Assembly: GCA_963744145.1 (NCBI GenBank)
Contig: CAVUSO010000001.1
Coordinates: 288,001-352,000, forward strand
DNA: 64,000 nucleotides
From: an uncultured cyanobacterium
GTDB lineage: Bacteria > Cyanobacteriota > Cyanobacteriia > Cyanobacteriales > CAWUOF01
Direction: 5' to 3'
The notes under the pieces are model-generated. The model was not told where the DNA came from. It ran no database searches and saw only the letters and a list, made by a program, of their open reading frames with translations. The position numbers and the translations under genes are program-made. This document shows, in pieces, positions 38,976-53,401 of this stretch (the stretch's first letter is position 1; each line of letters begins with the position of its first letter).

Positions 38976-39182
38976 ATGAAAGTAATGTTACGTCGGGGTC
39001 AAACTGGCAAATTAATCGTTTATGTAGCCAAAAAAGACTTGGAAGAAGAAGTAGTCAGTCAAACTGATGAAGCAAATGGTAACAAAATTTTCACTTTAAC
39101 CAATGGTTGGGAATTAGAAATTGCTAATTTAAGTGAGCCATTACAATTACCACAAACAGTAGAAGCCAGACGTTTAAATTAG
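38976..39182 (+). CDS. nifT: NifT/FixU
   Basis: MKVMLR, YVAKKDLEE, NGW, PQTVEARR. Confidence 0.94.
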   Translation: MKVMLRRGQTGKLIVYVAKKDLEEEVVSQTDEANGNKIFTLTNGWELEIANLSEPLQLPQTVEARRLN

Positions 39183-39258
39183 ACTTGGAAAGGTGGTCAG
39201 GATAGTTCTATGCAGTTAAGTTAAATGCTCTGAGGGTCAACAACCGTTCACCCTCAGA

Positions 39259-39797
39259 CAATATGTTTAGTTAACTTGTAGGGGCGAAGCATTCGGGCGA
39301 TAATTCATCACTTAAATTGTACCCTGAGCGTTCCCTGAGCGAAGTCGAAGGGCGGAGTCGAAGGGCTATTAATTTTATATCCGAATGCTTCGCCCTTCTT
39401 CGCCGATATCTCCCAAAAAAAATCTTAACTGAATTTATTTTAATATATAGTTGATCTGTTGGTTTCATAAATGGTAAGGGCAAAGCATTTCGGTAATATT
39501 ATTCTTCCCTTCGACTACGCTCAGGCTAAACGCTTCAGCAACCATTTATGCGCCGAAATGCTTTGCCCCTACGGTTAACTGAACTGTATTGGCTGATAAG
39601 TTCTTCGCTGATATCTCCCAAAAAAAAATCTTAACTGAATTTATTTTAATATATAGTTGATCTGTTGGTTTCATAAATGGTAAGGGCAAAGCATTTCGGT
39701 AATATTATTCTTCCCTTCGACTACGCTCAGGGTAAACGCTTCAGCAATCATTTATGTGCCGAAATGCTTTGCCCCTACGGTTAACTGAACTGTATTG
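39259..39797. mobile_element. Composite MITE/REP-like repeat element, copy 2 (inverted relative to 4047-4492), with ~205-bp tandem duplication
   Basis: Ends CAATATGTTTAGTTAA / TTAACTGAACTGTATTG (at 39591 and 39797); 39396-39600 repeated at 39601-39806. Confidence 0.8.
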
Positions 39798-39877
39798 GCT
39801 GATAAGAATTAGGAGAAAATTGATGTTTTCGTTGAAATAAGTGCCAGAATTAAGCTTAATACTGAAATTGTTATATT

Positions 39878-41377
39878 TTACAGTTTACAAGTCTTTACGC
39901 GAGAAAAAAACTGATAGATCGTACAGGACTGATCCAACAAATTACCCCACGCATAAAAATTCCCTACCCCCCATATACCCCACCATCCCCAACTTGCCGC
40001 AGCGGGGAGGTGACCAAAACGTGCGAATGCGGTGCTAAATGTTAGGTCACTATAGTCCAACCATTTTTCTCCTTTCTTCCATCCTACTTTTATAGCAAAT
40101 TTACGTTTTATTACGCTATCTGCATTTGGATGTCCACCAACATCTTTACTCTCCCATATCTGTTTTTGAACGCTAAACCCAAAACGACCATCAGAGTATT
40201 TCATCCATAACTGATCTATAGTGCGAAAGTCTTTACAGGGAAATTTTAACCAATCATCACCAGTGAGATATCTTTCTTTTGTATTAGCAGCTCTAAGTAC
40301 AAGATCATAAGTTTTTTGATCAGCCTCTTTCCATAACCTATCAGCTAATAAGTTACAGAGATGAGTGTAATCTATATCTCTTTCACTTTCAAGAATAATT
40401 TGAGTTTGTCCAGATACTGGTGATTGGGAAAATTGTGCGTTAGGCGTTGATATATTGGGTATTGACTGACGTACTTGTTTGTTAGGTACTGATTTAGAAC
40501 TAAGCATTTGCAATACTTCACTAGCAGACTGATAGCGATCGCCCAAAGTAACCGATATCATTTTATCTAAGATCATCGCTAAATCATTATTAATATTGAC
40601 TAGCGATCGCCATACCCATTTCATTTGATAAAAGTCAAACAGTTTATCGACATAATTACCGTTTTGTTCTTCTAATAAACAACCCGTCAAAAGTCTAATA
40701 CAAGTAACACCTAAACTATATAAATCACTAGCGGGAAAAGCATGACCCTGTAGTTGTTCTGGAGCTGCGTAACCAGGAGTACCAATATTTGTACCTGCTC
40801 TTGTAAGAACAGTACCCGTAAGTTGCTTGGATACTCCAAAGTCAATTAACATCAAACGATTATTGGCATCTCTAATAATATTATCTGGTTTAATATCTCT
40901 ATGAATTACATTCTTTTGATGCAGAAACTCTAAAACAGGTAGAAGTTGATTTAATAAATTCCTAATCTTTTCTTCATCAAATCTGCCGTTCTGTTGTAAT
41001 TCCTTCAATAAATCTTTTCCATCAATGAACTCTTGTACTAAATATAACCGTCCATCCTGTTCAAAAAATGCTAGCAAATCTGGTATTTGGGGATGTTTAC
41101 CTAAATCTTTTAATCTGACAGCTTCTTGTTTAAATAATTCTGTAGCTTTTTGTAATGCACTACCACCTTGCAACTGAGGTAGAAATTGTTTAATCACACA
41201 GAATGTGCCCAGTCGTTGTTCGTCTATTGATTTGAATGTTCTCCCAAAACCACCCTCTCCGAGAAATTCTACTGCTCGATAGCGATCGCCCAGTAACAAC
41301 CTATTACCGCAGCGCACACAAAACTTTGTCCCAGATGGGTTGATATTCTCACACTCAGGGTTTAGACATAAGCTCAT
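39878..41377 (-). CDS. Ser/Thr kinase-GUN4 domain protein, paralog A
   Basis: 4-Cys N-terminus CLNPEC..CVRC, GEGGFG, HRDIKPDN, DFG, APE; GUN4 signature WKEAD..FPCKD..IDQLW..YSDGRFGFSVQKQIW..GHLP. Confidence 0.93.
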   Translation of the reverse strand: MSLCLNPECENINPSGTKFCVRCGNRLLLGDRYRAVEFLGEGGFGRTFKSIDEQRLGTFCVIKQFLPQLQGGSALQKATELFKQEAVRLKDLGKHPQIPDLLAFFEQDGRLYLVQEFIDGKDLLKELQQNGRFDEEKIRNLLNQLLPVLEFLHQKNVIHRDIKPDNIIRDANNRLMLIDFGVSKQLTGTVLTRAGTNIGTPGYAAPEQLQGHAFPASDLYSLGVTCIRLLTGCLLEEQNGNYVDKLFDFYQMKWVWRSLVNINNDLAMILDKMISVTLGDRYQSASEVLQMLSSKSVPNKQVRQSIPNISTPNAQFSQSPVSGQTQIILESERDIDYTHLCNLLADRLWKEADQKTYDLVLRAANTKERYLTGDDWLKFPCKDFRTIDQLWMKYSDGRFGFSVQKQIWESKDVGGHPNADSVIKRKFAIKVGWKKGEKWLDYSDLTFSTAFARFGHLPAAASWGWWGIWGVGNFYAWGNLLDQSCTIYQFFSRVKTCKL

Positions 41378-41687
41378 AACTTGTCAATAATCCACAGGTT
41401 TCGTGTATAAATAATAGCGGACAGTTAGCCCAAATGTCCAGTGAGGTGTCTTGTTACGGTGTGTTAAGCATTTTGTAGGCGATCGCTTAGATTGTGCGAG
41501 GTTTGATTGTGGGTTGATTAGAGGGCGATAGCTTTGGTTAGGTTTGGGGAGTGCGATCGCATATTTAGAATGATGTTATTCTTAGCTTCTGTGTCAGGTA
41601 TTGAGTTAGGGAAAAGCTGATTTTTTCGTAGAAATTAGTACCAAATTTAAGCTTGACAAATGACATGAAATTTTTATAACTCACAGG

Positions 41688-43877
41688 TTACAAGTCTTTG
41701 CGGAAGATAAGAAACCAACCAGTCAGCTTATTCCGCAAATACGGACTACAATTCCCAAAAAGACCGGAAACGCCTGCCGGGAGGTGGCCAAGTGGAGCGG
41801 TAGTGTTCAAGGTTAGGTCATTATCGTTCAACCAATTGCCTCCTTTTCTCCATCCTACTTTATCAGCAAATTTATGTATTATTTCATAACCTGCATCAGG
41901 ATGTCCACCAACATCTTTACTTTCCCAGATTTGTTTTTGAACGCTAAACCCAAAATGACCATCAGAGTATTTAATCCATAACTGATCTATTGTGCGAAGG
42001 TCTTTATAGGGAAACTTTAACCAATCGTCATCATTGAGATATTGTCCATTTTCACAATTAGCAGCTTTGAGTACAACCCTATAAGTTTCTTCATCAGCTT
42101 CTTTCCATTTACCAACAGCTAATAAGTCACGGAGAAGACTGTAATCTATTTCTATTTCACTCTCAAGAATAAGCTCTAGTTGCATTTTACAGTTTGCAAG
42201 TCTTTGTGCGAGAAAAGATGGTTTCAACCCTCCAAATCCCTCACGCCCCACATCTCCTGTGCCCCCAATCCACTGTTCCGGTAATATAATACCTACACAA
42301 GGGAAGTGGCCTATAGGTGCATCGGTATTAAATGTAAGATTGTTATAATCTAACCACTTTCCTCCTTTTCTCCATCCTACTGTATCACCAAATTTACGTT
42401 CTATCTCTATTTCTTCTTCTATTCCTGCGTTTGGATTTCCACCAACAGTTTTACTTTCCCAGATTTGTTTTTGGACACTATATCCAAAACGACCATCAGA
42501 ATATTTTACCCATAGCTGATCTATGGTACGAAGGTCTTTACAGGGAAACTTTAACCAATCATCACCATTGAGATATCCGTCTTTTTCACGATTAGCAGAT
42601 TCAAGTAAAAGATGGTAAGTTTTTTCATCAGCATCTTTCCAGTAACCAGCAGCTAATAAGTTTCTAAGAGGAATGTAATCTATATCTCTTTCACTGTCTA
42701 GAATAAGTTCTGCTGCTGTTATATTTTGTTGTGGTGACGATGATATTACTTCAATTTGGTTTTGTGGATGTGATGTTAATTCTATTACTGGCTTCATGTC
42801 TTGATTTATTGTTTCATTTAATTCAGTAATAATCCTTTGCTGAATTTTTTCTACATCTGCATCACGTAAACATAAATGAACACTAGCCCATTCCTCTAAT
42901 TCTTTAATAACTTTATCATCTAAAGGATAATTTTTAGAAATTTTTTGTCTATATTCTTCTTCATAACGTTTTAAGCTTTCGTGATATAATTGATGATGCT
43001 TTATAACACTACTTATTATTTCTTCAGCTTGCTCATCAGAAAGCTGTAAGTTCTCTTGTTTTGTTTTTAAAATATCACGATTAAGCTTAGATATTTCTCC
43101 ATCTTTAATTCGCATTTCAACTTCCTGACAAAATCTTTTCTCAGGGGTAGGAGCCATACTTATCAAAATATTATATCCTTCATTATCTAGAATAATTTTA
43201 GGCTCCATTTTGGGCTTGACTTCCTTGACTTTTGCTTTGGCATATTTATGTAATTCTTGGATATGAATTTTACCATCACCATCTGTATCAGCAGCACCAG
43301 TTTCAATACCTTCTACTAGATGCTTTGTATAAACCGATAATTCAGAGCCTTCATGTTGAAATGAAGTCTGATTTTTTGAGGAAGAAGCTAGTATTACTCT
43401 TCCCTCTGCACCTAATTCTTTATCTAATAAATCAATATCTATACCTTTAGGTTGCCAACCAATCGCAAAAGCACCGCTATAACAACAGTCTAAAATAATT
43501 ATTTGACGCTTTGCATAGTTACCATGCTTTGACATTTTTTGGATGAAACTAGCTGAAGCAGCAGTGGCTAGGAAATTATTTTTTGTGGTAATCCGAGTTG
43601 CTAGATAAAGTTGACCATCATCGTCTTTAATACCATGTCCAGAAAAAAATAGTAGAATTAAATCATCTTTATTACTACTTTGAAATAGTTTTTGAATTTC
43701 TTCAGTCATCTGAAGGTATTCGGGATTAATTAAAAAATTAACACTATCAAACCCTCCCATTTCAGGATTTTCTAATACCCGTTTCATTGCCTTTACATCA
43801 TTAGGTGGTGCAGATAAAGGATTAATGTCTTCTCCATATTCGCTAACACCTATTAGTAATGCTATTTTTTTAGGCAT
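41688..43877 (-). CDS. Caspase-like peptidase (C14) fused to two tandem GUN4 domains
   Basis: KIALLIGVSEY, FSGHG (His) and LDCCYSG (Cys) dyad intact; two GUN4 signatures. Confidence 0.92.
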   Translation of the reverse strand: MPKKIALLIGVSEYGEDINPLSAPPNDVKAMKRVLENPEMGGFDSVNFLINPEYLQMTEEIQKLFQSSNKDDLILLFFSGHGIKDDDGQLYLATRITTKNNFLATAASASFIQKMSKHGNYAKRQIIILDCCYSGAFAIGWQPKGIDIDLLDKELGAEGRVILASSSKNQTSFQHEGSELSVYTKHLVEGIETGAADTDGDGKIHIQELHKYAKAKVKEVKPKMEPKIILDNEGYNILISMAPTPEKRFCQEVEMRIKDGEISKLNRDILKTKQENLQLSDEQAEEIISSVIKHHQLYHESLKRYEEEYRQKISKNYPLDDKVIKELEEWASVHLCLRDADVEKIQQRIITELNETINQDMKPVIELTSHPQNQIEVISSSPQQNITAAELILDSERDIDYIPLRNLLAAGYWKDADEKTYHLLLESANREKDGYLNGDDWLKFPCKDLRTIDQLWVKYSDGRFGYSVQKQIWESKTVGGNPNAGIEEEIEIERKFGDTVGWRKGGKWLDYNNLTFNTDAPIGHFPCVGIILPEQWIGGTGDVGREGFGGLKPSFLAQRLANCKMQLELILESEIEIDYSLLRDLLAVGKWKEADEETYRVVLKAANCENGQYLNDDDWLKFPYKDLRTIDQLWIKYSDGHFGFSVQKQIWESKDVGGHPDAGYEIIHKFADKVGWRKGGNWLNDNDLTLNTTAPLGHLPAGVSGLFGNCSPYLRNKLTGWFLIFRKDL

Positions 43878-43890
43878 TTCACTAAGTATT

Positions 43891-44268
43891 TTATGTATTA
43901 GACAATAAATCTTGAACAGTTTCTTTTGTTATAGGTAAATTTTGGCTTGTTGTTTTTATTTTAATTTTTTTATCTCCATCTTTTGTAATTTCAAGTTCTA
44001 TTTCAATAGGTTTATCTTGTAGACGCTCTTTAAACCATGCAAAAACAAATTGAATATTAAATAATTTCACTACAGTTGTAATAGACCCAAGTAATGTCTG
44101 AATGCTTTTTTTATTTAGGTCTATATTTGGGTCTTCAGTAAAATCAGCTTTTTCAACTGCATCAATTTCACGTAATTCTTGCAACAATTTTTCAGTCAAT
44201 TCTAATAATTCGTCATCTTCTAATGTTGGATCTGCTAAACCAAAAGTTATTTCAACTAGCTCTGTCAT
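43891..44268 (-). CDS. EACC1-like small protein upstream of caspase
   Basis: 125 aa, acidic helix (ELLELTEKLLQELREID), central hydrophobic stretch, beta-rich C-terminus; 13 bp before caspase; GGAG RBS. Confidence 0.65.
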   Translation of the reverse strand: MTELVEITFGLADPTLEDDELLELTEKLLQELREIDAVEKADFTEDPNIDLNKKSIQTLLGSITTVVKLFNIQFVFAWFKERLQDKPIEIELEITKDGDKKIKIKTTSQNLPITKETVQDLLSNT

Positions 44269-44282
44269 TTTGGCTCCTTATG

Positions 44283-44456
44283 TTAATTTTTGTTTCTTTT
44301 TATAGTACGATGAGACAAATCCCGAATTAATTCCCGGATAATAGAGTGTTTAATCTCCTGGCGTTCTAAGCAATAAGCCTCCAGCGCCAAATACTTACTC
44401 TCTGGCAATTCAATATTCAACCGCTTAATCGGCTCAGTTAGCACTTTTCTGGGCAT
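44283..44456 (-). CDS. Ribbon-helix-helix (CopG-like) small DNA-binding protein, 57 aa (not in ORF track)
   Basis: MPRKVLTEPIKRLNIELPESKYLALEAYCLERQEIKHSIIRELIRDL...; strand-helix-helix pattern; stop 14 bp before EACC1-like gene. Confidence 0.65.
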   Translation of the reverse strand: MPRKVLTEPIKRLNIELPESKYLALEAYCLERQEIKHSIIRELIRDLSHRTIKRNKN

Positions 44457-44612
44457 TGTGGTTATTTCACAAAACTCGTGTATTTATTCTAGTGTATAAT
44501 CCGGCAAACGTCCAATAGCAAGTAATCGATATCTGGGCAAGTTTCTGAATGCCCAACCCCAACCAAGAAATATCCTTTTTATTCAAAAAGGTTTGCTAAT
44601 CTAAAAGCTAAT

Positions 44613-45515
44613 TCAAAGGCTAAATATTCTCTCATCAGTTAATACCTGCATAGATTGTCTTTTCTCCAAATTTTTCCAATGTTTCATAGCTTCTTTATAA
44701 CGCTCTTTTAATGCGCTTGCATCAGGTTTATTACAGTTATGCTTATTTAATTTTAAGAATGTATTATCATATTGCTGATAATGGCTTTTTTCTAAGCTAG
44801 GATGGATATGAATTTTTTTATTTTCATCAATTGCTATAAGATGAGCATCAAAAAGCTTATGAATATCAACACAAAGAAGCAATCCATTAGAAGGATCATT
44901 GTTTTGGTTTTTTTCGTAAGGCTCTATATGAGCAGCTTCTAAAAGTATTTGAATATCAGAATCAGTAATTAGACAACGATAATTATACAAATTTAACAAT
45001 TGTAGGCGGAATTTATACTGTCCTAGTCTATTAGCTAGTCTATTAGATTTAGATTGTATAAAATTTATAACATAAGGATCTGAAATAATAGCTCGATTAA
45101 GTTTCGCAAATTGAAGCTTTGCGTATTGAAAATTAGTTGATGGAAAAATAGAAAGCTGGCCATAATTTAGCTTCTCGTGATGTTTATTCAAGTAAGTTGT
45201 ATCCAACATCTTTAAGTCTATATATCCTAACTCTGCATAATCAAAAACTGCATCGTACAAATTCATTCCTTCAAAATTTGCATATTGAAGGTTTGCTCCT
45301 TCAAAGTTTGTTCCATCCAATTCAGATCCTCGAAAGTCAGCATTTTGAAGTTCTGCCCCTCGAAAGCTAGCATATTCAAGATTAGCACCCCGGAAATCTA
45401 CACCATTAAGAATCAAATGATCCAAAATTAGGTGATTTAAATCTACCGCTCGAAAATCTCGTTGCCCGTTTTCGTACTGAGCCTTAATTTTATCAATATC
45501 CATATTATGTATCAT
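44613..45515 (-). CDS. Pentapeptide-repeat protein fused to HNH endonuclease
   Basis: A(D/N)F/L pentapeptide repeats; C-terminal FR..LL..Y..RCLIT..LEAAHIEP..NGLLL..DIHKLFD. Confidence 0.82.
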   Translation of the reverse strand: MIHNMDIDKIKAQYENGQRDFRAVDLNHLILDHLILNGVDFRGANLEYASFRGAELQNADFRGSELDGTNFEGANLQYANFEGMNLYDAVFDYAELGYIDLKMLDTTYLNKHHEKLNYGQLSIFPSTNFQYAKLQFAKLNRAIISDPYVINFIQSKSNRLANRLGQYKFRLQLLNLYNYRCLITDSDIQILLEAAHIEPYEKNQNNDPSNGLLLCVDIHKLFDAHLIAIDENKKIHIHPSLEKSHYQQYDNTFLKLNKHNCNKPDASALKERYKEAMKHWKNLEKRQSMQVLTDERIFSL

Positions 45516-45617
45516 CCATTTTTTGTTTTTTGACCCGATGAAACTATGCTAACATATATAGAGGCGTTATGGCAAGATATGTGTAAGCCAGATTAGTGAA
45601 TCAAAAATCTTAACCAT

Positions 45618-46685
45618 CAGAAGTTACGCAGTTGAACTGGGGATGTGGTAAAAAAAGATCATGAATCCACCTAAATCCACGCCCCTCGAATACATTAACT
45701 TCCTGATTGCGGCAAAAGGCATACAGTTGTAGCGAAGCCGAGCGTGTTCAACCAATCGCAGAAAACCGAGCAGCCCACGATGCGACTTGTGTTGAGCGTA
45801 GTCGAAACATTAACCGTTTGCTGCATCGAAGGTCACCAGACCCCAATGAATTCTGGCAGGAAGCCAAAGACTATGTTGAGTTAAACCAAGGGGTTCTGGT
45901 CATTGATGATACAATGCTTGACAAGTGGTATGCCAAAAAGATGGAGTTGGTCAGTCGGCAATGGTCAGGGAAGCATAAACGTGTTGTCCAAGGCATCAAT
46001 CTGACTACCCTATTATGGTCAGATGGGGATAAACATATCCCATTAGACTATCGACTTTATGAGAAAGAAGTGGACGGGGCTACCAAAATGACCACTTTCG
46101 AGCCATGTTGCTTAATGCCCATGCCAGAGGCTTTCATGCCCAGTGTGTAGCAATTGAATAGTTGGTTTAGTTCTTTGGCCAATTTGAAATTAATTGCTAG
46201 TTATAGCTGGACTTGGTTGACTCGACTGAAATCTAATCGATTGGTAAATGCGGATCATACCGAAAACCGACCAATTAGGGAGGTAGCGTTAGCCCAAACG
46301 GGCACAGTAGTTCATCTGAAAGGTTATGGGTTCATTAAAGTATTCAAGATTGTTGCCCCAGACGGTGACATTGACTACTGGGCGACCAATGACTTACAGA
46401 TGAGCAGCTTAAAACGTTTACAGTGGGCGGAATTTGAATGGTCAATTGAGGAATATCATCGAGGTCTAAAGCAATGCTGTGGCGTGGAAAGATCCCAAGT
46501 TCGGTCGGCTCGCGCAAGGGCGTAATCACATTGGTTTGGCAATTCGGGCCTTTCTCCGTTTGGAGATGCACTGGTTTAACACTGGCATCAGTTGGTATGA
46601 GTCCAAAATTAGTATTGTGCGTGAAGCAGTCCGCTCTTACTTAGAGGCCCATTGGCTGTCTCTCCCGTCAACTGCGTAAGTCCTG
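45618..46685 (+). mobile_element. IS701-like insertion sequence, defective
   Basis: TIR CAGAAGTTACGCAGTTGA vs CAGGACTTACGCAGTTGA (16/18); direct repeat ACCAT at 45613-45617 and 46686-46690. Confidence 0.88.
45661..46679 (+). pseudogene. DDE transposase with several frameshifts
   Basis: MNPPK start at 45661; fragments with VIDDT, SWF, WSIEEYHRGLKQ in different frames. Confidence 0.85.
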
Positions 46686-46955
46686 ACCATGACGAGGATG
46701 AAGTGTCAGAGTGTGGCTGGAAAAAACTAGCCTGTAGTCTTTACTACAGAAACTGCTTGTGCGCTCAAGCTAATGCAATATAGAACAACTACGGTAGGAT
46801 CGCTTTGTTGACAGGTTGTTGGAGTATGATCACACTAAAGAGCATATTAAGTCTTAATTATTAAAGTATTTTTAGCTGTGACATTTCAGATGGTGTAAAA
46901 CATCCACTCTAGATTTACTCAGGACTAAATTTTCAAGCAATTTGGCAACCTTTAA

Positions 46956-48635
46956 TCATTGTATTCGTCCCTGTAAAATAGCATTTTTAATTTCCAAGAG
47001 AGGTCCTAAAACATCTGGTGCAAGAGCCAATTGAAGTACCATCTCATAATCTTGTTGTGCCAAAGGATGTGTGTGCGAACCTAGATTGCGAATTCTAGAA
47101 ATATCAGTCCAGGCATCTATTACTCTGCTAGATAAGGAACTACCAATTGCCTGTTGAATCATTAAATCTAATCTTTCATTTGGTGAATTAGTCATAGTTA
47201 TAACTAGGTGTAAAGCATCTCCAAGAGTAATAAACCGATGACGACCACTTGCACGATTAACCCAATCTAACTGATTGATATCAACAGTTATTACTCTATT
47301 TCCTCTATGTCCTGTTTCTACAATTCCTCGTTTTTGTGGAAGCGTAGGATCATGCAGGGTAAAATATGTCGGCATAGTGATGTCACGCGCCGCTCTTGCA
47401 GCTTGAATCATCGATAAGTTTACTTCTAGTTCAAAAGCTTTCCATACACCTTGAGCGCCAGGTGTAAAATCAATATCCATCATTGGTTGTAGTCTTTGTG
47501 CAGCGGGATTTTGATTAACTATTGGTTGTGGTCTTTGTGCCGCAGGATTCCGATTAATTGGTTGTGGTCGTTGTGTAGCAGGATTTTGATCAATTGATTG
47601 TGGTCGTTGTGCAGCGGGATTTTGTGCAACAGGATTCCGATCAATTGGTTGTGGTCTTTGGATATTACGATTCTGTCCATATCCTCCCTGGGGTCTTCGT
47701 CTACCAAGAGGACCAATACCTTCAAGTGCGTTTTCTGCTAGACTTTCAAGAAAAGAGCCAACAGCAAGAGATGTTTCAATCATTACTGCTGATTCATCAT
47801 TAAGAAGCGGTGGAAGTTCGACTGTATTTTGCAAATTCTGAAGAACTCTTGCCGCAACAAATGCTGGAGCTATGAGCCTTCCCGTTGCATCTTCAATTAC
47901 AGCATCTTCCGATCCTATCCCTGTCAAATCAAGGTCTTCAAATTGCTGAGAACGATTGTTTCGCCTCAATGAGTTGAGACTATTTTCAACCATATCCAAT
48001 TGTCTACCAAGTTCATAGCGATAATCGTTAGCTTCTAGACCTCGTTCCGTGTCAAAAGTATTTAAAATGTTATAAAAAGCCCTTAATCCTTGACGATTTG
48101 ACTCATTTTGTAGACGATAATCTACTTGATCGCTACATATTGCTTCAAGGGTAGTAAATATATGCCCAATATTTGGAATTCCATATTGATCAGGAAGTCT
48201 TGCAAGTTCATTTAATTGCACATCGAGATGTTCTGATGAGGTTGGGGAAATCACGTATTCTAATTGCCAAAGATTTGTTGATGCAACAATGGCAGGAAGA
48301 GAATGCCAAGGAATGCCAAACAAACGTGCTATTTCCCGTATTAATGGTCCCTCGTTAGTTGTAAATGATAAAGTACCAGCAGTTGCCTGATAATTTCTCC
48401 ACCATCGTGAATTACTACGATCTTGCAGCCATTCATCTGGGGGATCTAACACGGCAAAAAAAGCAAGGTTTTCACCTGTACTTTCATGCAAATTCGCAAA
48501 TTCAGCTTTCAAATATTCAGTAAAAATTACATCACTTGGCTTGAAAAGAATTGCGACCTGTATTGGAAACCTTGCAAAATACTTTTGTGAAGGCGATCCC
48601 GCATTAAAGATATTTGTTTTTATTGGAAATACCAT
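46956..48635 (-). CDS. Hypothetical protein with internal Q/P/R repeats and candidate C-terminal HEPN domain
   Basis: 559 aa; KAFELE helix and RNLGSH (Rx4H) near the C-terminus. Confidence 0.6.
   Translation of the reverse strand: MVFPIKTNIFNAGSPSQKYFARFPIQVAILFKPSDVIFTEYLKAEFANLHESTGENLAFFAVLDPPDEWLQDRSNSRWWRNYQATAGTLSFTTNEGPLIREIARLFGIPWHSLPAIVASTNLWQLEYVISPTSSEHLDVQLNELARLPDQYGIPNIGHIFTTLEAICSDQVDYRLQNESNRQGLRAFYNILNTFDTERGLEANDYRYELGRQLDMVENSLNSLRRNNRSQQFEDLDLTGIGSEDAVIEDATGRLIAPAFVAARVLQNLQNTVELPPLLNDESAVMIETSLAVGSFLESLAENALEGIGPLGRRRPQGGYGQNRNIQRPQPIDRNPVAQNPAAQRPQSIDQNPATQRPQPINRNPAAQRPQPIVNQNPAAQRLQPMMDIDFTPGAQGVWKAFELEVNLSMIQAARAARDITMPTYFTLHDPTLPQKRGIVETGHRGNRVITVDINQLDWVNRASGRHRFITLGDALHLVITMTNSPNERLDLMIQQAIGSSLSSRVIDAWTDISRIRNLGSHTHPLAQQDYEMVLQLALAPDVLGPLLEIKNAILQGRIQ
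47482..47660 (-). repeat. Intragenic ~36-nt tandem repeat encoding QRPQPI(D/N)(R/Q)NPAA
   Basis: About five imperfect units visible in DNA and protein. Confidence 0.85.
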
Positions 48636-49110
48636 AGGAGCTAACGAAAAATAGAATCTAATGTTGTATTTTTTGAATCGCAGATTTTGGATGGAAAAGT
48701 TGTCTAGCTTTTTGATAAAGGCATAAACTTACTTGCAACCAAAATAACCTTACTTATACCATCAAAGCACCGAACCCAATATTTGTCAACAGAATACCAG
48801 CACTACTCACTGCTTAAAGTTTATTAAGCCTTGTGCATCAATTATTTACTACTTGATCATCTACTCAAATAGAACATTTACAAGTTGTCGCGGAGAAGAG
48901 CTTACCGTTGGCTTAGGGGTCGGGATGAATCAGGCTGCCGATGGTTAGGGGCTGTTGATAGCTTGGCGATCGCGAAATGGCTAAAAAATACGGTTGGAAA
49001 CTGGTCGATATAGAGGAAACAAATAACGATATCCTACCTGTAGATTGTATATTTGACGGCCAAACCGAATTCCCAAAGTCCTATTATGATCACGATGAGG
49101 AGTAACAATA

Positions 49111-49248
49111 ATGCGTAAGTGGATTGTTTTCCGTGCTGATGGACGACAACCTGGCGGGCTAACCCGCAAATATGCCCACACGGGGTCACTCACAAAAACT
49201 TTAGCCCAGAGGATCTCCTGGGTGCAGAAGGTATTCTCAAGCAATTAA
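49111..49248 (+). pseudogene. Short, probably truncated hypothetical ORF (MRKWIVFRAD...)
   Basis: GAGGAG RBS then ATG at 49111; only 45 codons. Confidence 0.35.
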
Positions 49249-49399
49249 CAAAAGCATTTAAAGTAACTAGGTATTAGTTATTGTCGCAAAATGTAAGCGA
49301 ATTATTGCCTATAAGCATTAGAGAAAATTTGATATTTTTGTAGTAATTAGTACCAAATTTTAGCTTGGCAAATGGCATGAAGTTGTTAGAGCTTAAAGG

Positions 49400-50818
49400 T
49401 TACAAGTCTTGGCGCGAGAAAAGATCCGCGCAAAACCCCCAGAACCCTCCACCATCTACTATTACCACTACACCAAGGGCCCGCGCGGGAAGGTGGCCAG
49501 AAAGAGCAGTGATGTTAAATGTTAGATTACTATAGTCTAACCAGTTTCCTCCTTTTCTCCATCCTAATTTATCAGCAAATTTGTAATACGTATTCCAATC
49601 TGCATTAGGATGTCCACTAACACCCTGACTTTCCCAGATTTGTTTTTGAACGCTAAACCCAAAACGACCATTAGAATATTTTACCCATAACTTATCTATG
49701 GTGCGAAGGTCTTTACATGGAAACTTTAACCAATCATCACCAGTGAGATATTCCTCTTGTTCACGATTAGCAGCTTTAAGTACAAGATGATAAGTTTTCT
49801 TGTCAGCTTCTTTCCATTTTCTAGTAGCTAATAAGTCACGGAGAGGAGTGTAATCTATTCCTTTTTCACTTTCAAGATTATCTTGATTTTGTGGAGCTAT
49901 TGGTTGTGAAGAAAACTCGGTTTTAGGTATTGATTTAGAACTAAGTGCTTGCAATATTTCACTAGCAGATTGATAGCGATCACCCAAAGGAACCGATATC
50001 ATTTTATCTAAAAAAACACCCAAATCATTGCTAACACTAGCATATTGTCGCCACACCCATTTCATCTTATAAAAATCAAACAACTTATCTATATTGTTGC
50101 CATTTTGTTCTTCTAATAAACAACCTGTTAAAAGTCTAATACAAGTAACACCTAAACTATATAAATCACTAGCGGGAAAAGTTTGACCCTGTAATTGTTC
50201 TGGAGCTGTATAACCAGGAGTACCAACTGATGTACCCACTCTTGTCATTACAGTACCGCTTAATTGCTTGGATACACCAAAATCAATTAACATTAAACGA
50301 TTATTAGCATCTCTAATAATATTCTCAGGTTTAATATCTCTGTGAATTACATTATTTTTATGAATAAATTCTAAAACAGGTAGAAGTTGATTTAATAAAT
50401 TTTTAATTTTTTCCTCATTAAATTTGCTGTTTTGTTGTAGTTCCTTTAATAAATCTTGTCCGTCAATAAATTCTTGTACTAAATATAGCCGTCTATCTTG
50501 TTCAAAGAATGCTAATAAGTCAGGTATTTGGGGATGTTTACCTAAGTCCCTTAATCTGACAGCTTCTTGTTTAAATAATTCTGTAGCTTTCTGTAATGCT
50601 CCACTACCTTGCAACTGAGGTAGAAATTGTTTAATCACACAGAATGTGCCCAGTCGTTGCTCGTCTATTGATTTGAATGTTCTCCCAAAACCACCCTCAC
50701 CGAGAAATTGTACTGCTCGATAGCGATCGCCCAGTAACAACCTATTACCGCAGCGCACACAAAACTTTGTCCCAGATGGGTTGATATTCTCACACTCAGG
50801 GTTTAGACATAAGCTCAT
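49400..50818 (-). CDS. Ser/Thr kinase-GUN4 domain protein, paralog B
   Basis: Same architecture as 39878-41377; HRDIKPEN, DFG, APE; GUN4 signature. Confidence 0.93.
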   Translation of the reverse strand: MSLCLNPECENINPSGTKFCVRCGNRLLLGDRYRAVQFLGEGGFGRTFKSIDEQRLGTFCVIKQFLPQLQGSGALQKATELFKQEAVRLRDLGKHPQIPDLLAFFEQDRRLYLVQEFIDGQDLLKELQQNSKFNEEKIKNLLNQLLPVLEFIHKNNVIHRDIKPENIIRDANNRLMLIDFGVSKQLSGTVMTRVGTSVGTPGYTAPEQLQGQTFPASDLYSLGVTCIRLLTGCLLEEQNGNNIDKLFDFYKMKWVWRQYASVSNDLGVFLDKMISVPLGDRYQSASEILQALSSKSIPKTEFSSQPIAPQNQDNLESEKGIDYTPLRDLLATRKWKEADKKTYHLVLKAANREQEEYLTGDDWLKFPCKDLRTIDKLWVKYSNGRFGFSVQKQIWESQGVSGHPNADWNTYYKFADKLGWRKGGNWLDYSNLTFNITALSGHLPARALGVVVIVDGGGFWGFCADLFSRQDL

Positions 50819-50994: not shown

Positions 50995-51231
50995 ATGATG
51001 ACAACCAAAGAGCAATTACTTGAAGAACTTGAAACCCTTCCCGAAGAACTCATTAGTGAAGCATTGGACTACATCTGCTTCATCAAAAATCGTTATAGTC
51101 TAAAACTGGAAGCCATTCGGGCGATCGCAAAACTCGACTCAGACTGGTGGGAAAACCTCAATAACTTCACCCCTGATTTTCTGGACGAGCGATCACAGCC
51201 TAACCTGCCCAACAGAGAGGACATATTTTGA
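50995..51231 (+). CDS. vapB: Antitoxin (VapB-like) of type II TA pair
   Basis: Small acidic ORF with FTPDFLDERxQP tail; TGATG overlap with PIN toxin. Confidence 0.75.
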   Translation: MMTTKEQLLEELETLPEELISEALDYICFIKNRYSLKLEAIRAIAKLDSDWWENLNNFTPDFLDERSQPNLPNREDIF

Positions 51232-51632
51232 TGAGATTTCTGCTCGACACAAATATCTGTATTTATATTATCAAACAGAAGCCTATTTCCGTTCGTCAAC
51301 GTTTCCAATCAGTCAATACAGGACATATCGGTATTTCAATTGTTACACTTGCCGAATTGGAGTATGGTGCTGCTAAAAGTAAAAACCCTATAAGAAACCG
51401 TGAAACTCTTAAAGTATTCTGCGCTCCTTTCGAGATCATCGACTTTAATGAAGAAGATGCGCGAATTTTTGGCAAGATTCGTACTGATTTAGAGCAACGA
51501 GGACAGCCTATTGGCAGTTATGACTTGCTTATTGCCGCACAAGCCCTTAGTCGCGGTCTTATTATCGTAACGAACAATATTAAAGAATTTAGTCGCATTG
51601 ATGGGCTAGTTATTGAGAATTGGGTCAAATAG
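51231..51632 (+). CDS. vapC: PIN-domain toxin VapC
   Basis: LLDTNICI, ELEYG, IGSYDLLIAAQA, TNNIKEF, ENW. Confidence 0.93.
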   Translation: MRFLLDTNICIYIIKQKPISVRQRFQSVNTGHIGISIVTLAELEYGAAKSKNPIRNRETLKVFCAPFEIIDFNEEDARIFGKIRTDLEQRGQPIGSYDLLIAAQALSRGLIIVTNNIKEFSRIDGLVIENWVK

Positions 51633-51784: not shown

Positions 51785-53401
51785 TTATTTTCCAATAGTT
51801 TCACTTTTAAAAGATAATTTAATATTGGGTAAACCTGAATTCTTTAATCGGTTAGAAATTTCTGCTTTAGCTGATGGAAAAGTAGGAAAATTCTCATTCA
51901 TTCCAAAAGGAATCCCTACACTATATCCGATTTTTTCTATTTTTATATTAACCCTAGCAGGTACTATATACTTCCGAGGTGAGATATAAAATTTCTCTAG
52001 ATAACCGCTCCCATTACTTAAATTTTTGATAAAATCATCACTAAAATAGTTAGTAGCAAGATCGGCAAAATCTTTCAGATATTCTTCAAACAAAAGCCAT
52101 CCAATTTTATCAACACCAGCTAAAACGTAAACAGTATCAAATCTACAAGAGGGATTTTGTACTTTCTGATTGTTTAATATTCCGGAGACTGAATTAAATA
52201 TAGGAACTATCTGACCATTAGAATATTTTATAGATTCAGAAGGCATTTGTGGATCAAGACTAAAACATTTAACGAATAATCCTATTTTTTCTCTAATCCC
52301 ACTAAATCTAAATTCTCTTTTCTCATATTTATGAAGATTAATTCCCCGTTTTAATAATAATTCCTCAATCGTATTAAATTCAGAATTAACTAATGTTGAT
52401 TTTATTTGTTCAGAGCGACGAGAGCGACTTCCTAATCCACGCATTCCAGTTTTATATTCCTGACTAACTTTGGACATAGTTGCATTAATAGCTTCACGTT
52501 CCAAAGTTTCATCATTGAATAGGATTTCAATCAAATCTGAATTATATGGTTTAAGTCTCTTTAAGCAGAAAGTGTAATAATGATCTTGGTCAGCTTGATT
52601 TTGAATATTAGCTAATGATTCTGGAGTTAATGCGTTAATAGGTTCTTTAGCTAAGGTAGTTTCAATATATTCTCTCATTTGCGGCGCTTCTTCTTTTAAA
52701 TACAAACCTTTCCAATAATTAACCTCAATTACATATCCATTTACATAAAGACGATACATAAAAGAGTAAGTAGGTGGTAAACCAGGTGGCAAGTTTTCCC
52801 ATTTATTAGCATAAGCTTTGCGACTATTAAATGCTTGCCTGATAACTCCTTGTGTATTCTGCCAATTCTGAGTATCAAGCTGGTATTTCGTGGCAAAAGC
52901 TTCTAAATCGAGACAAATATGAATAATGCTTAATCCCAAAATTCTTTTCTGTACCATCCAGTCAATAGTGTTTAAGTTCTGGGGTTGGTTTTGAATATCT
53001 TTTCTAGGTGGCTCTACTCCTAAGATGAAAGCAAAATCAGCGATCGCGATTATTGTTTCCCTTAAAAGAGTTTCAGTTGGACGTACTGCTTTCGTCTTTA
53101 CTGGAGTAGAGTTTAACTCTGGACAATATGTTTCAATACGTTGGGTTTCTACATGATCTAATTGAGACACACTAACTTGTTCATAATAAATAGTAAAATA
53201 TCTCTTTTTCTGCGATTCTAGTTGATCAATACGGTGATGAGCTTTCCCTTGCCAACGCTTATTGAGATTTTTGGTTTTTCCTATATACCAAATATGGTTA
53301 TTTTCGTCTAAAACATAGTAAATTCCAGAATATTCAGGAAGTAGATGTTTCATTGATAAAGAAATCTTTGAAAGTTGCAGAATATTTTCGTCAGCAATCA
53401 T
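51785..53401 (-). CDS. GIY-YIG nuclease domain protein with long unknown C-terminus
   Basis: SGIYYV...WYIGKT.NL.KRW...E...LN. Confidence 0.8.
   Translation of the reverse strand: MIADENILQLSKISLSMKHLLPEYSGIYYVLDENNHIWYIGKTKNLNKRWQGKAHHRIDQLESQKKRYFTIYYEQVSVSQLDHVETQRIETYCPELNSTPVKTKAVRPTETLLRETIIAIADFAFILGVEPPRKDIQNQPQNLNTIDWMVQKRILGLSIIHICLDLEAFATKYQLDTQNWQNTQGVIRQAFNSRKAYANKWENLPPGLPPTYSFMYRLYVNGYVIEVNYWKGLYLKEEAPQMREYIETTLAKEPINALTPESLANIQNQADQDHYYTFCLKRLKPYNSDLIEILFNDETLEREAINATMSKVSQEYKTGMRGLGSRSRRSEQIKSTLVNSEFNTIEELLLKRGINLHKYEKREFRFSGIREKIGLFVKCFSLDPQMPSESIKYSNGQIVPIFNSVSGILNNQKVQNPSCRFDTVYVLAGVDKIGWLLFEEYLKDFADLATNYFSDDFIKNLSNGSGYLEKFYISPRKYIVPARVNIKIEKIGYSVGIPFGMNENFPTFPSAKAEISNRLKNSGLPNIKLSFKSETIGK

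What the first reader, a model, noticed from the sequence alone, without database searches (positions are those of the whole stretch)
39809..49498. Candidate indel-based receptor-diversification system at the C-termini of GUN4-domain signalling proteins
Seen: four GUN4 domains (two on kinases, two on a caspase) share a fixed layout. A conserved GUN4 body ends in GG(C/T)CAC(C/T)T(C/T)CC (GHLP/GHFP), followed by an unalignable segment and a constant motif close to TTTTCTCGC..AAGACTTGTAA. In the terminal copies this continues into stops in all three frames and a conserved non-coding element. Established: cyanobacterial DGRs diversify C-terminal ligand-binding domains of kinases and caspases, but by adenine substitution at essentially fixed length. 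Inference: here both length and frame vary, like a CDR3-type junction, suggesting a different diversification mechanism that feeds kinase and protease outputs. I am not aware of this layout having been described but cannot check. No RT or recombinase is visible in the window.
Basis: partly seen in the sequence, partly recalled or inferred. Interest (0 to 1): 0.92.

Follow-up and report, generated by a model that had tools for sequence, protein, structure and literature searches.

The report
Hypervariable tails on GUN4 sensor domains
In this cyanobacterium the pigment-sensor-like (GUN4) ends of many signalling proteins each carry a private, random-looking stretch of almost only G and T, closed by a DNA block conserved across cyanobacteria that makes a similar protein ending in all three reading frames; I found this layout in no paper I searched, and it may mark an unknown way of varying receptors.

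Summary
All four GUN4 domains in the window share one layout: GUN4 body, GHLP/GHFP, an unalignable 67-99 nt stretch, a conserved 20-nt block. The three terminal copies then run into stops in all three frames and a conserved non-coding element of about 95-125 nt. Genome-wide, 31 cassettes have this layout. Their variable stretches are no more alike than shuffled sequence, even where flanks are 90-98% identical. The stretches are G/T-rich at all three codon positions, have no donor copies, and enter the block in all three frames (at least 13 switches on the tree). The block is conserved as DNA in many cyanobacterial genera. It is not a DGR: no template repeat and no linked reverse transcriptase. 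Turnover is evolutionary, not visibly within populations: near-identical strains and some congeners share the stretch. The only recurrent neighbour is a RAYT-like Y1 transposase gene, convergent to the element. Its presence does not track G/T purity. The mechanism remains unknown. My best reading is episodic, block-anchored replacement by untemplated or strongly biased synthesis. This scan met the same cassette before on other DNA (e1-3076851, e1-3083115). Five paper searches found no description.

The parts
39878..41377 (-). Ser/Thr kinase with C-terminal GUN4-like domain (kinase 1)
   Evidence: ORF. Pkinase 1.4e-44, GUN4 3.3e-34.
40004..40015 (-). GHLP codons of kinase 1: last position that aligns with solved GUN4 structures
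   Evidence: For kinase 2, homology to PDB 1Z3X and 1Y6I ends at GHLP.
39905..40003 (-). Variable tract of kinase 1 (99 nt, G+T 0.73, enters the block in frame 0, giving ...FFSRVKTCKL*)
39885..39904 (-). Conserved 20-nt block of kinase 1 (1 mismatch to the cross-genus 20-mer)
39790..39884 (-). Stops in the other two frames plus the conserved non-coding 3' element
   Evidence: nhmmer hit at genome 327909-327790, E 1.2e-18. Alignments.
41688..43877 (-). Caspase (Peptidase_C14) with two tandem GUN4-like domains
   Evidence: GUN4 1.6e-75, 2 stretches.
42214..42299 (-). Variable tract of the internal GUN4 copy (86 nt, frame 2). The block is read through as ...FLAQRLANCKMQ... into the second GUN4 domain.
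42194..42213 (-). Block of the internal copy. Two substitutions, one of which (TGTAA to TGCAA) removes the stop that the kinase 2 / caspase-end frame uses.
41708..41777 (-). Variable tract of the caspase's terminal GUN4 copy (70 nt, frame 1, giving ...LIFRKDL*)
41584..41707 (-). Block plus non-coding 3' element behind the caspase gene
   Evidence: nhmmer hit at genome 329714-329584, E 2.3e-25.
49400..50818 (-). Ser/Thr kinase with C-terminal GUN4-like domain (kinase 2). Its kinase part is 85% nt identical to kinase 1.
49420..49486 (-). Variable tract of kinase 2 (67 nt, G+T 0.75, frame 1, giving ...LFSRQDL*)
49315..49419 (-). Block plus non-coding 3' element behind kinase 2
   Evidence: nhmmer hit at genome 337426-337315, E 1.6e-19.

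Best explanation
Each GUN4-like sensor cassette has three parts: a constant body ending at GHLP, a loop-coding tract, and a fixed DNA anchor (a pyrimidine lead plus the 20-nt block).

Shown:
- The tract is replaced wholesale, faster than its flanks change.
- It has arbitrary length and frame, no template elsewhere in the genome, and a composition close to a random G>T polymer at all codon positions.
- The anchor yields a similar short ending in every frame (..LLSRKDL*, ..LFSRAKTCNL*, ..SLAQRLVTCKI*) and then stops.

Inferred:
- A dedicated, episodic DNA-level process is anchored at the block and works upstream from it. It renews the tract by untemplated or strongly biased synthesis followed by rejoining.
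- Selection then keeps versions that still fold. The predicted model shows a low-confidence loop closed by a short, more confident terminal helix.
- The result is a family of sensors with private loops feeding kinases, caspases and CHAT-STAND NTPases.

The enzyme is not identified. The non-coding part of the element (about 85 nt past the last stop) probably holds its recognition or control site.
For: 1. Tandem repeats in one kinase. Four tandem GUN4 repeats plus a neighbouring paralogue are nearly identical over the body and the following linker. The 48-61 nt between GHLP and the block's lead are unalignable and almost pure G/T.
2. All cassettes. Over 31 cassettes (465 pairs), tract identity equals that of shuffled tracts in every bin. 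This includes the 11 pairs with 90-93% identity in the 150 nt upstream (0.52 vs 0.52) and pairs with 97-98% identity in the 60 nt downstream.
3. Composition. It is the same at codon positions 1, 2 and 3 (G .48/.44/.39, T .31/.33/.37). Gly and Val codons end in G or T in 75% and 81% of cases, against 51% and 48% in the bodies (p 6e-7, 2e-7).
4. Randomness. G and T run lengths fall off roughly geometrically, and no donor copy was found (all non-self hits 14-25 nt). TRF finds only weak 2-3-copy repeats.
5. Specificity. Only 20 windows of 36 nt in the 7.7-Mb genome have at least 34 G/T (or C/A). Ten are GUN4 tails, always G/T on the coding strand. Seven of the other ten are periodic repeats.
6. 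Control. The genome's canonical-type GUN4 (C1 1114444-1115175) has neither the tract (G+T 0.40) nor the block.
7. Frames. Counts are 6/10/5 (type-1 block) and 3/6/1 (type-2 block). The tree of bodies needs 15 label changes, 2 of them block type.
8. Block conservation. The exact 20-mer occurs at 34 loci in genome contigs, in records titled Microcystis, Crocosphaera, Arthrospira, Planktothrix, Nostoc, Calothrix, Rivularia, Nodosilinea, Pleurocapsa and others. All three entry frames occur there too.
9. Other genomes. G/T fraction of the 40 nt before the block is at least 0.80 at 25 of 59 sites.
10. Positional orthologues. In two congeners the element is near-identical (about 97-99% by my reading of the printed alignment), the body about 90% identical, and the tract unalignable.
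11. Gradient. Among close paralogues, diversity rises toward the tract: 0.01-0.04 at 126-246 nt upstream, 0.09-0.16 in the last 126 nt, 0.23 in the last GHLP bases.
12. Structure. AF2 gives the body pLDDT about 90, the tract 55-65 and the terminal helix about 82. The fold matches GUN4 (4XKC, E 1e-7).
Against: - No enzyme is linked.
- No variation was seen within a population. Two metagenome contig pairs with 99-100% identical upstream DNA have identical tracts. Two congener pairs share the 40 nt before the block. Two Microcystis records differ by 3 of 120 nt, and three Arthrospira copies are identical.
- Many tracts are only moderately G/T-rich: 0.66-0.75 in the window, 0.37-0.80 at the 16 parsed genome-contig loci.
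- Off-frame stops in the tracts are not depleted beyond composition (33 and 30 observed, 30 +/- 5 in shuffles). Only 7 of 31 tracts are open in all frames.
- 15 of 46 GUN4 tails lack the DNA block. Several of those keep an R(L/I)xxCx(I/L) ending as protein only, so part of the block's conservation may be protein-level.
- The diversity profile is not monotonic; the far 5' part of the body is also variable. Gene conversion of the central body could mimic a gradient.
Confidence: 0.45

Rival explanations
1. No dedicated mechanism. The tract codes an unconstrained low-complexity loop that evolves very fast by replication slippage and relaxed selection. Because indels keep changing the entry frame, every base of the block is non-synonymous in some frame over time, so ordinary protein selection freezes it as DNA.
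For: - Identical tracts in near-identical strains and some congeners.
- Weak local 6-13-nt repeats inside some tracts.
- A duplicated pyrimidine lead in one locus.
- Protein-only conservation of the ending in diverged paralogues.
- The predicted terminal helix suggests the ending has a protein role.
Against: - Tracts are already random at 7-10% flank divergence and in tandem repeats with nearly identical flanks.
- They are not microsatellite-like.
- G/T excess at synonymous sites, with equal composition at all codon positions, is not produced by relaxed selection in a genome whose third positions favour A/T.
- The element stays conserved for about 85 nt beyond the last stop, where no frame is translated.
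Confidence: 0.2
2. The block and element are the substrate or end of a RAYT-like / IS200-like Y1 (HUH) transposase. The enzyme nicks single-stranded DNA at the block. The tract is junction filler made when the element or cassette is cut, moved or rejoined.
For: - A Y1_Tnp protein (Pfam 8e-19) is closest to NCBIfam REP-associated tyrosine transposase, at 66-69 bits.
- Of the 18 loci L050-L067 (16 with near-full-length Y1 matches, 2 shorter), 12 have the element by nhmmer and 14 have the element or a GUN4 domain. In the loci I checked it is convergent, roughly 35-100 nt beyond the Y1 stop.
- In the window's genome, Y1 C-terminal remnants lie beside at least four GUN4 tails.
- Genomes with Y1 more often carry the block: 22 of 30 against 53 of 121 (Fisher p 0.004; related genomes are not independent).
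- A DGR paper reports IS200/IS605 transposases near 9 variable proteins (PMC7517822, passages read).
Against: - G/T purity before the block does not differ between Y1-positive and Y1-negative genomes (0.76, n=22, vs 0.73, n=37; p 0.61). Three of the four purest tracts are in Y1-negative genomes.
- 53 of 121 Y1-negative genomes have the block. The pattern's reversed control hit 21 of the 151 genomes searched, so some matches are chance.
- No conserved hairpin in the element.
- No conserved second end upstream of Y1.
- The only full-length Y1 in this genome is not next to a cassette.
- The NCBIfam score is below the family cut-off of 80.
Confidence: 0.15
3. A retroelement-type process without a template repeat. 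A reverse transcriptase copies a short RNA that starts at the block, runs off its 5' end and adds an untemplated C/A tail. After homing, this tail reads as G/T just upstream of the block.
For: - A sharp 3' boundary and a fuzzy 5' boundary.
- Random G/T composition on the sense strand.
- No donors.
- By eye, a TTGACA-N17/18-TATCTT-like motif faces antisense in the element consensus. This is not supported by the scan.
Against: - The genome's three RT loci are an RT-Cas1 pair, a DRT5 defence RT and a truncated DGR-type fragment. None is near a cassette.
- The promoter scan listed no such site in the window copies.
- Rfam found nothing.
- No RNA data were available.
Confidence: 0.07
4. Pure diversifying selection on a Gly/Trp/Val/Leu/Phe-rich binding loop, with normal mutation.
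For: - The loop replaces the stretch after GHLP, which in solved GUN4 structures runs on for 20-24 more residues.
- Tail peptides are rich in G, W, V, L, F and C.
Against: - Synonymous third positions carry the same G/T bias.
- No residual similarity in recent duplicates.
- Length and frame change freely.
Confidence: 0.06
5. Cassette exchange or gene conversion from silent donor copies or between paralogues, as in pilin or msp2-type variation.
For: - There are many paralogues.
- The central body is homogenised among close copies.
Against: - No tract shares more than 14-25 nt with anything else in the genome.
- No two tracts are alike.
Confidence: 0.03

Closest known systems
Diversity-generating retroelements (DGRs) of cyanobacteria, which vary C-type-lectin-fold ends of kinases and caspase-like proteases (PMC7517822; abstract and passages read)
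   Same: Hypervariation is confined to the C-terminal putative ligand-binding end of the same kinds of signalling proteins. The 3' boundary is a fixed DNA sequence and the 5' boundary is fuzzy.
   Different: No template repeat, no linked reverse transcriptase, no adenine-specific substitution at fixed length. Here length and frame vary, and the new sequence is a G/T-rich random-like string.
Junctional (N-region) diversity of vertebrate antigen-receptor CDR3 (recalled, not from a call)
   Same: Untemplated-looking, G-rich, length- and frame-variable sequence between two constant coding parts, forming a binding loop.
   Different: No RSS- or RAG-type signals were tested or seen. Change is on an evolutionary rather than a somatic scale as far as shown. 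All three frames are made productive by the downstream block.
Contingency loci: phase variation by slippage in simple repeats (recalled)
   Same: Indels in G-rich low-complexity DNA change the reading frame downstream.
   Different: The tracts are not periodic repeats. No frame switches the gene off. Whole tracts differ, not just repeat counts.
RAYT/REP (REPIN) systems, class 2 TnpA-Y1 (PMC6006769, passages read; PMC3116915 and PMC5581495, abstracts in a search listing)
   Same: A low-copy Y1 HUH gene lies beside one copy of a short DNA element that is dispersed through the genome.
   Different: The element is not a palindrome, sits at the 3' ends of GUN4 ORFs only, and the protein scores below the RAYT cut-off.
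Canonical GUN4 / Ycf53 (Synechocystis, PDB 1Y6I and 4XKC; Thermosynechococcus, 1Z3X)
   Same: Same fold up to GHLP.
   Different: The last 20-24 residues of the solved proteins are replaced by the variable tract and the block-coded ending. The canonical-type gene of this genome has no tract or block.

Membership tests
GUN4-like domain (Pfam PF05419) | Match to the family profile above the curated cut-off | tested here: met
   All four window domains and 20 of 20 further ORFs scanned. AF2 model matches GUN4 structures.
Canonical GUN4 (Mg-chelatase cofactor) | C-terminal segment after GHLP, as in the solved structures | tested here: not met
   Alignment to 1Z3X ends at residue 218 of 238 and to 1Y6I at 209 of 233. 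Pfam matches stop at profile positions 124-135 of 141.
DGR | Reverse transcriptase near the target or elsewhere with matching repeats | tested here: not met
   PF00078 has 3 hits in the genome, none in the window or next to a cassette: RT-Cas1, DRT5 and a truncated fragment.
DGR | Template repeat that differs from the variable repeat mainly at adenines, with equal length | tested here: not met
   No non-self match longer than 25 nt for any tract. Tract lengths range from 35 to 129 nt.
Simple-repeat contingency locus | Tandem array of a short unit whose copy number varies | tested here: not met
   TRF finds only 2-3.7 copies of 6-13-nt units in some tracts, and one weak 11-nt pair in the window. 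Run lengths are geometric.
Donor-cassette gene conversion | Silent or paralogous donor sequences matching parts of the variable region | tested here: not met
RAYT/REP | Y1 HUH transposase of the RAYT family | tested here: inconclusive
   Pfam Y1_Tnp 8e-19. NCBIfam REP_Tyr_transpos 65.7 and 68.9 bits, below the cut-off of 80. By eye, NH(I/V)H and YIHANP motifs are present.
RAYT/REP | Associated repeat is a palindrome (hairpin) flanking the gene in inverted pairs | tested here: not met
   RNAalifold on 18 elements gives 4 invariant pairs and no covariation. No conserved sequence upstream of Y1.
IS200/IS605 insertion sequence | Two conserved ends around the transposase gene, in multiple identical copies | tested here: not met
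   1-4 matches per genome. No second end found.
Known structured RNA (Rfam 15) | Match to any covariance model | tested here: not met
   0 matches at E up to 1 over window 39000-50000.

The most novel reading that the evidence does not exclude
Cyanobacteria have a prokaryotic counterpart of junctional (N-region) diversification. A programmed single-strand or double-strand break at the conserved block is extended by an untemplated, G/T-biased (or C/A-biased on the other strand) polymerase or nucleotidyl transferase. It is then rejoined in any frame, and the block makes every frame productive. This builds a germ-line repertoire of private sensor loops on kinases, caspases and NLR-like STAND proteins, possibly with the RAYT-like HUH enzyme as the nickase.
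Probability: 0.3. Interest if true: 0.95.

Novelty: categorically new. Interest (0 to 1): 0.8.

Why it matters
GUN4-ended kinases, caspases and NLR-like STAND proteins are among the most expanded signalling and conflict proteins of filamentous cyanobacteria. Their GUN4 end is currently read as a tetrapyrrole sensor (PMC7159879, passages read). These results show that the part which would close the pocket is instead a private, rapidly renewed loop. That argues for many different ligands rather than one.

The DNA module is a design not described in any paper I could find: it tolerates any entry frame yet gives a similar ending. If the tract is made by an active untemplated process, it would be a new way for bacteria to generate receptor diversity without a retroelement. 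It would also point to a new enzyme activity of possible use for targeted in vivo mutagenesis.

If the tract is only fast slippage, the three-frame block is still an unusual example of selection acting on all frames of one sequence.

Tried and rejected
- Sequencing runs. One search listed 4 DNA runs kept as contigs, with no RNA holder listed. Laying them gave depth about 1-14 over the genes and no listed difference or indel inside the four tracts (175 differences were not shown). Contigs cannot show rare variants, so nothing follows.
- Rfam: no match.
- RNAalifold on 18 elements: no structure.
- Promoter/terminator scan of 39500-42400: 7 promoter-like sites against 8.3 expected, none in the elements. 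The antisense promoter-like motif I saw by eye stays a guess.
- Close relatives. The species-representative set holds only one genome of the same family, at about 70% identity, so no true orthologues of the window genes were available.
- Recurrent neighbours. Clustering 479 ORFs around 46 tails gave no shared family apart from the GUN4 genes themselves. The Y1 remnants were too short for that screen and were found later by DNA alignment.
- A second transposon end beyond Y1: none.
- Cassette 5' boundary. Nucleotide similarity simply starts at the domain start (..IILESE..), with no DNA signal.
- Purine/pyrimidine pattern conservation, as expected from deamination alone: none, since tract identity equals shuffles.
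- Selection for frame-open tracts: not seen.
- Y1 presence against G/T purity: no relation.
- Earlier-findings look-up by sequence and by place returned nothing.
- Supplements of the papers were not opened.


Full report
**What is in the window.**
Three minus-strand genes end in GUN4-like domains. They are two Ser/Thr kinases (39878-41377 and 49400-50818) and a caspase with two tandem GUN4 domains (41688-43877).
- The motif GGYCAYYTYCC, coding GHLP or GHFP, occurs four times, once per domain. Shuffles give 0.25 on average.
- After it come 99, 70, 86 and 67 nt that do not align. Identity is 0.48-0.53, against 0.46-0.50 for shuffles.
- The flanking GUN4 bodies are 0.76-0.81 identical. The following 20-nt block is 0.80-0.90 identical.
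- AAGACTTGTAA is exact at the three gene ends and has one mismatch in the internal copy.
- Behind the three terminal copies lies a conserved non-coding stretch.

**The same nucleotides are read in three frames.**
- Kinase 1 reads the block as FSRVKTCKL-stop.
- Kinase 2 and the caspase end read it as SR(Q/K)DL-stop.
- The internal caspase copy reads it as FLAQRLANCKM and carries on into the next domain. Two of its bases are changed; one of them (TGTAA to TGCAA) removes the stop used by the kinase 2 / caspase-end frame.
One natural copy of the block gives SLLSRKDL-stop, LFSRAKTCNL-stop and SSLAQRLVTCKI-stop in its three frames. These are exactly the three endings seen among the paralogues. From the start of the block's pyrimidine lead, the three frames stop after 36, 43 and 29 nt in most type-1 copies.

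**Genome-wide picture.**
The window is G000:C1:288001-352000 of a 7.7-Mb genome.
- tblastn finds 52 places with GUN4 similarity.
- 46 tails could be parsed, and 31 carry a recognisable block. Of these, 21 are the type seen in the window. Ten are a second type, which reads ISFLFSRL-stop, CLFSLL-stop, or runs on as SLFSSLDSN....
- A profile of block plus element finds 23 copies in the genome. Twenty lie at a parsed GUN4 tail. Two more lie beside GUN4 fragments. One is a partial copy. So the element is not a free repeat.
- Of 23 full ORFs checked by Pfam, 16 are kinases, 1 is a caspase, 3 are caspase/CHAT-STAND NTPases, 1 is an Hpt protein, 1 is a TPR protein and 2 have no other domain.
- The canonical-type GUN4 gene of the genome has neither tract nor block.

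**The tract is hypervariable, not merely diverged.**
- One kinase has four tandem GUN4 repeats. These and a neighbouring paralogue are nearly identical over about 400 nt of body and over the following linker. The 48-61 nt between GHLP and the block's lead are unalignable.
- Over all 465 pairs of the 31 cassettes, tract identity equals that of shuffled tracts in every bin of flank identity. This includes pairs with 90-93% identity upstream and 97-98% downstream.
- On a tree of the bodies, the entry frame and block-type label needs at least 15 changes, 2 of them block type. Several sister pairs differ in frame.

**The signature is at DNA level.**
- Base composition in the tracts is the same at all three codon positions and rich in G and T.
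- Gly and Val codons end in G or T far more often than in the bodies.
- In the ten purest tracts, G is 0.53, T 0.35, A 0.08 and C 0.04. Run lengths fall off geometrically, as in a random string.
- Only 20 windows of 36 nt in the whole genome reach 34 G/T. Ten are GUN4 tails, always with G/T on the coding strand.
- No tract has a donor elsewhere in the genome, and tandem periodicity is weak.
- Tracts are not specially free of off-frame stops. Frame tolerance is therefore a property of the block, not of the tract.

**Beyond this genome.**
- The exact 20-mer occurs at 34 loci in the species-representative genome collection. Nearly all are in cyanobacteria of many genera, and one is a likely chance hit in a non-cyanobacterial MAG.
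- All three entry frames are used there too: 6, 3 and 7 of the 16 tails my pattern could parse.
- A degenerate block pattern hits 75 of 151 genomes of the order. Its reversed control hits 21 genomes, so some of the matches are chance.
- At 59 such sites, the 40 nt before the block have G+T of at least 0.80 in 25 cases and at least 0.88 in 11.
- The element is conserved for about 85 nt past the last stop and ends in ..GATACCTGGCAC. It has no Rfam match and no conserved fold.

**Tempo.**
- Turnover seen: in two congeners, the cassette beside the Y1 gene has a near-identical element, a body about 90% identical and unrelated tracts. Other cassette pairs in that genus show the same gap.
- Stasis seen: two congener pairs share the 40 nt before the block. 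Two Microcystis records differ at 3 of 120 nt, and three Arthrospira copies are identical.
- Metagenome contigs: two pairs with 99-100% identical upstream DNA have identical tracts. Four pairs at 81-87% have near-random ones (0.53-0.61).
Replacement therefore happens somewhere between about 1% and 7% flank divergence. It is episodic and evolutionary. The public runs that hold this DNA were too thin to test a population.

**The one recurrent neighbour.**
DNA alignment downstream of four tails revealed a conserved convergent coding remnant. Longer copies in other genomes show it to be the C-terminus of a Y1 (HUH) transposase-like protein. Its closest family is RAYT, but the score is below the family cut-off.
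- It occurs in 30 of 151 genomes, at 1-4 matches each.
- Among the 18 best loci, 12 have the element and 14 have the element or a GUN4 domain. In the loci I checked these lie just beyond the Y1 stop, on the other strand.
- This repeats, independently, a remark of an earlier agent of this scan (e1-3083115).
- Y1 presence is associated with block presence (p 0.004, kin not independent). It is not associated with G/T purity (p 0.61), and many Y1-free genomes have pure tracts.
- No second transposon end or hairpin was found.
Y1 may be the nickase, a mobiliser of cassettes, or an element that targets this site. The data do not decide.

**Protein view.**
- Homology to solved GUN4 structures stops at GHLP. 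The solved proteins run on for 20-24 more residues.
- An AlphaFold model of the kinase 2 domain, from a 19-sequence alignment, has mean pLDDT 81. It shows a confident GUN4 body, a low-confidence tract and a more confident short terminal helix over the ..DLFSR.. ending. Its best structural matches are GUN4 proteins.
- I infer that the tract is a surface loop tied down at both ends. The shared L-x-(S/Q)-R of all three frames would be the tie. This is inference.

**Literature.**
- Searches for GUN4 with 'hypervariable', with 'IS200', with 'GUN4 domain/kinase/caspase/C-terminal/variable', and for 'GUN4-like/paralogs' returned only two relevant papers: the DGR survey (PMC7517822) and the Kaur et al. 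conflict-systems paper (PMC7159879). I read passages of both. Neither describes the tract, the block or the element.
- A search on RAYTs in cyanobacteria led to the TnpA-Y1 classification (PMC6006769, passages read). The passages I read did not mention GUN4.
- Subscription-only papers and supplements were not seen.

**Verdict.**
The DGR-like reading is excluded. A dedicated, block-anchored renewal of the loop-coding DNA is the best but unproven explanation (0.45). Fast slippage of an unconstrained loop is the main ordinary rival (0.2).

Noticed in passing
G000 C1 379213-379266 (-), 3279578-3279631 (-), 4710621-4710674 (-), 4855556-4855606 (+); outside the window: Remnants of the C-terminus of a RAYT-like Y1 transposase (..EKFVMANCYDPKVAAQFF..) lie convergent, about 100 nt beyond the 3' element of four GUN4 genes. 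One copy differs by several synonymous changes, so the remnant was recently coding.
   Followed up: yes
window 43891-44268 (-): A 125-aa acidic ORF directly upstream of the caspase-GUN4 gene, with no Pfam match. An earlier scan note (e1-2500228) describes EACC1-like small genes before such proteases. I did not test the likeness.
   Followed up: no
window 44613-45515 (-): A protein joining pentapeptide repeats to an HNH_2 endonuclease domain (Pfam 1e-22 and 2.8e-14), lying between the GUN4 genes.
   Followed up: no
window 45707-46525 (+): Two adjacent ORFs. The first carries a partial DDE_5 transposase match (2.1e-8), so this is probably a broken insertion sequence.
   Followed up: no
window 46956-48635 (-), repeat at 47482-47624: A 559-aa ORF with no Pfam family. 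It contains a 36-nt tandem repeat (3.9 copies) coding a proline/glutamine-rich ..NPAAQRPQPI.. array.
   Followed up: no
window 51785-53401 (-): A 538-aa protein with an N-terminal GIY-YIG nuclease motif (8e-5), next to a PIN-like small ORF at 51228-51632 (domain call by eye only).
   Followed up: no
window about 39700-39790 (- strand, downstream of kinase 1): A short dispersed repeat (about 25-40 nt, ..GTAGGGGCAAAGCATTTCGG..-like) with more than 40 copies across the genome. It is unrelated to the GUN4 element.
   Followed up: partly
L067 (G072 C1, Y1-adjacent cassette): The 12-nt pyrimidine lead of the block is tandemly duplicated. About 62 nt of the element's 3' part, ending ..TTACCTGGCAC, is also duplicated. 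Both may be footprints of cutting and rejoining at the two ends of the element.
   Followed up: no
G000 C1 1808857-1808894, 3185208-3185243, 3938994-3939029: Three aperiodic G/T-only runs that are not at GUN4 tails and have no block. I did not check whether they lie in genes.
   Followed up: no
G000 C1 about 5091611-5093700, 3189607-3191088 and 5012335-5012886: The genome's reverse transcriptases: an RT next to a Cas1-like gene (Cas1 by eye; PADLOC hit Cas1_IIIb on the RT), a DRT5-type defence RT (PADLOC 7.8e-202), and a truncated RT fragment with a DGR-like IGNLTSQ motif (motif reading is recalled).
   Followed up: partly
L168/L178 and L171/L175 (metagenome contigs): Pairs with identical GUN4 body and tract, yet only 0.78-0.80 identity over the block and the 150 nt that follow. 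The DNA behind the cassette may be exchanged independently of it.
   Followed up: no
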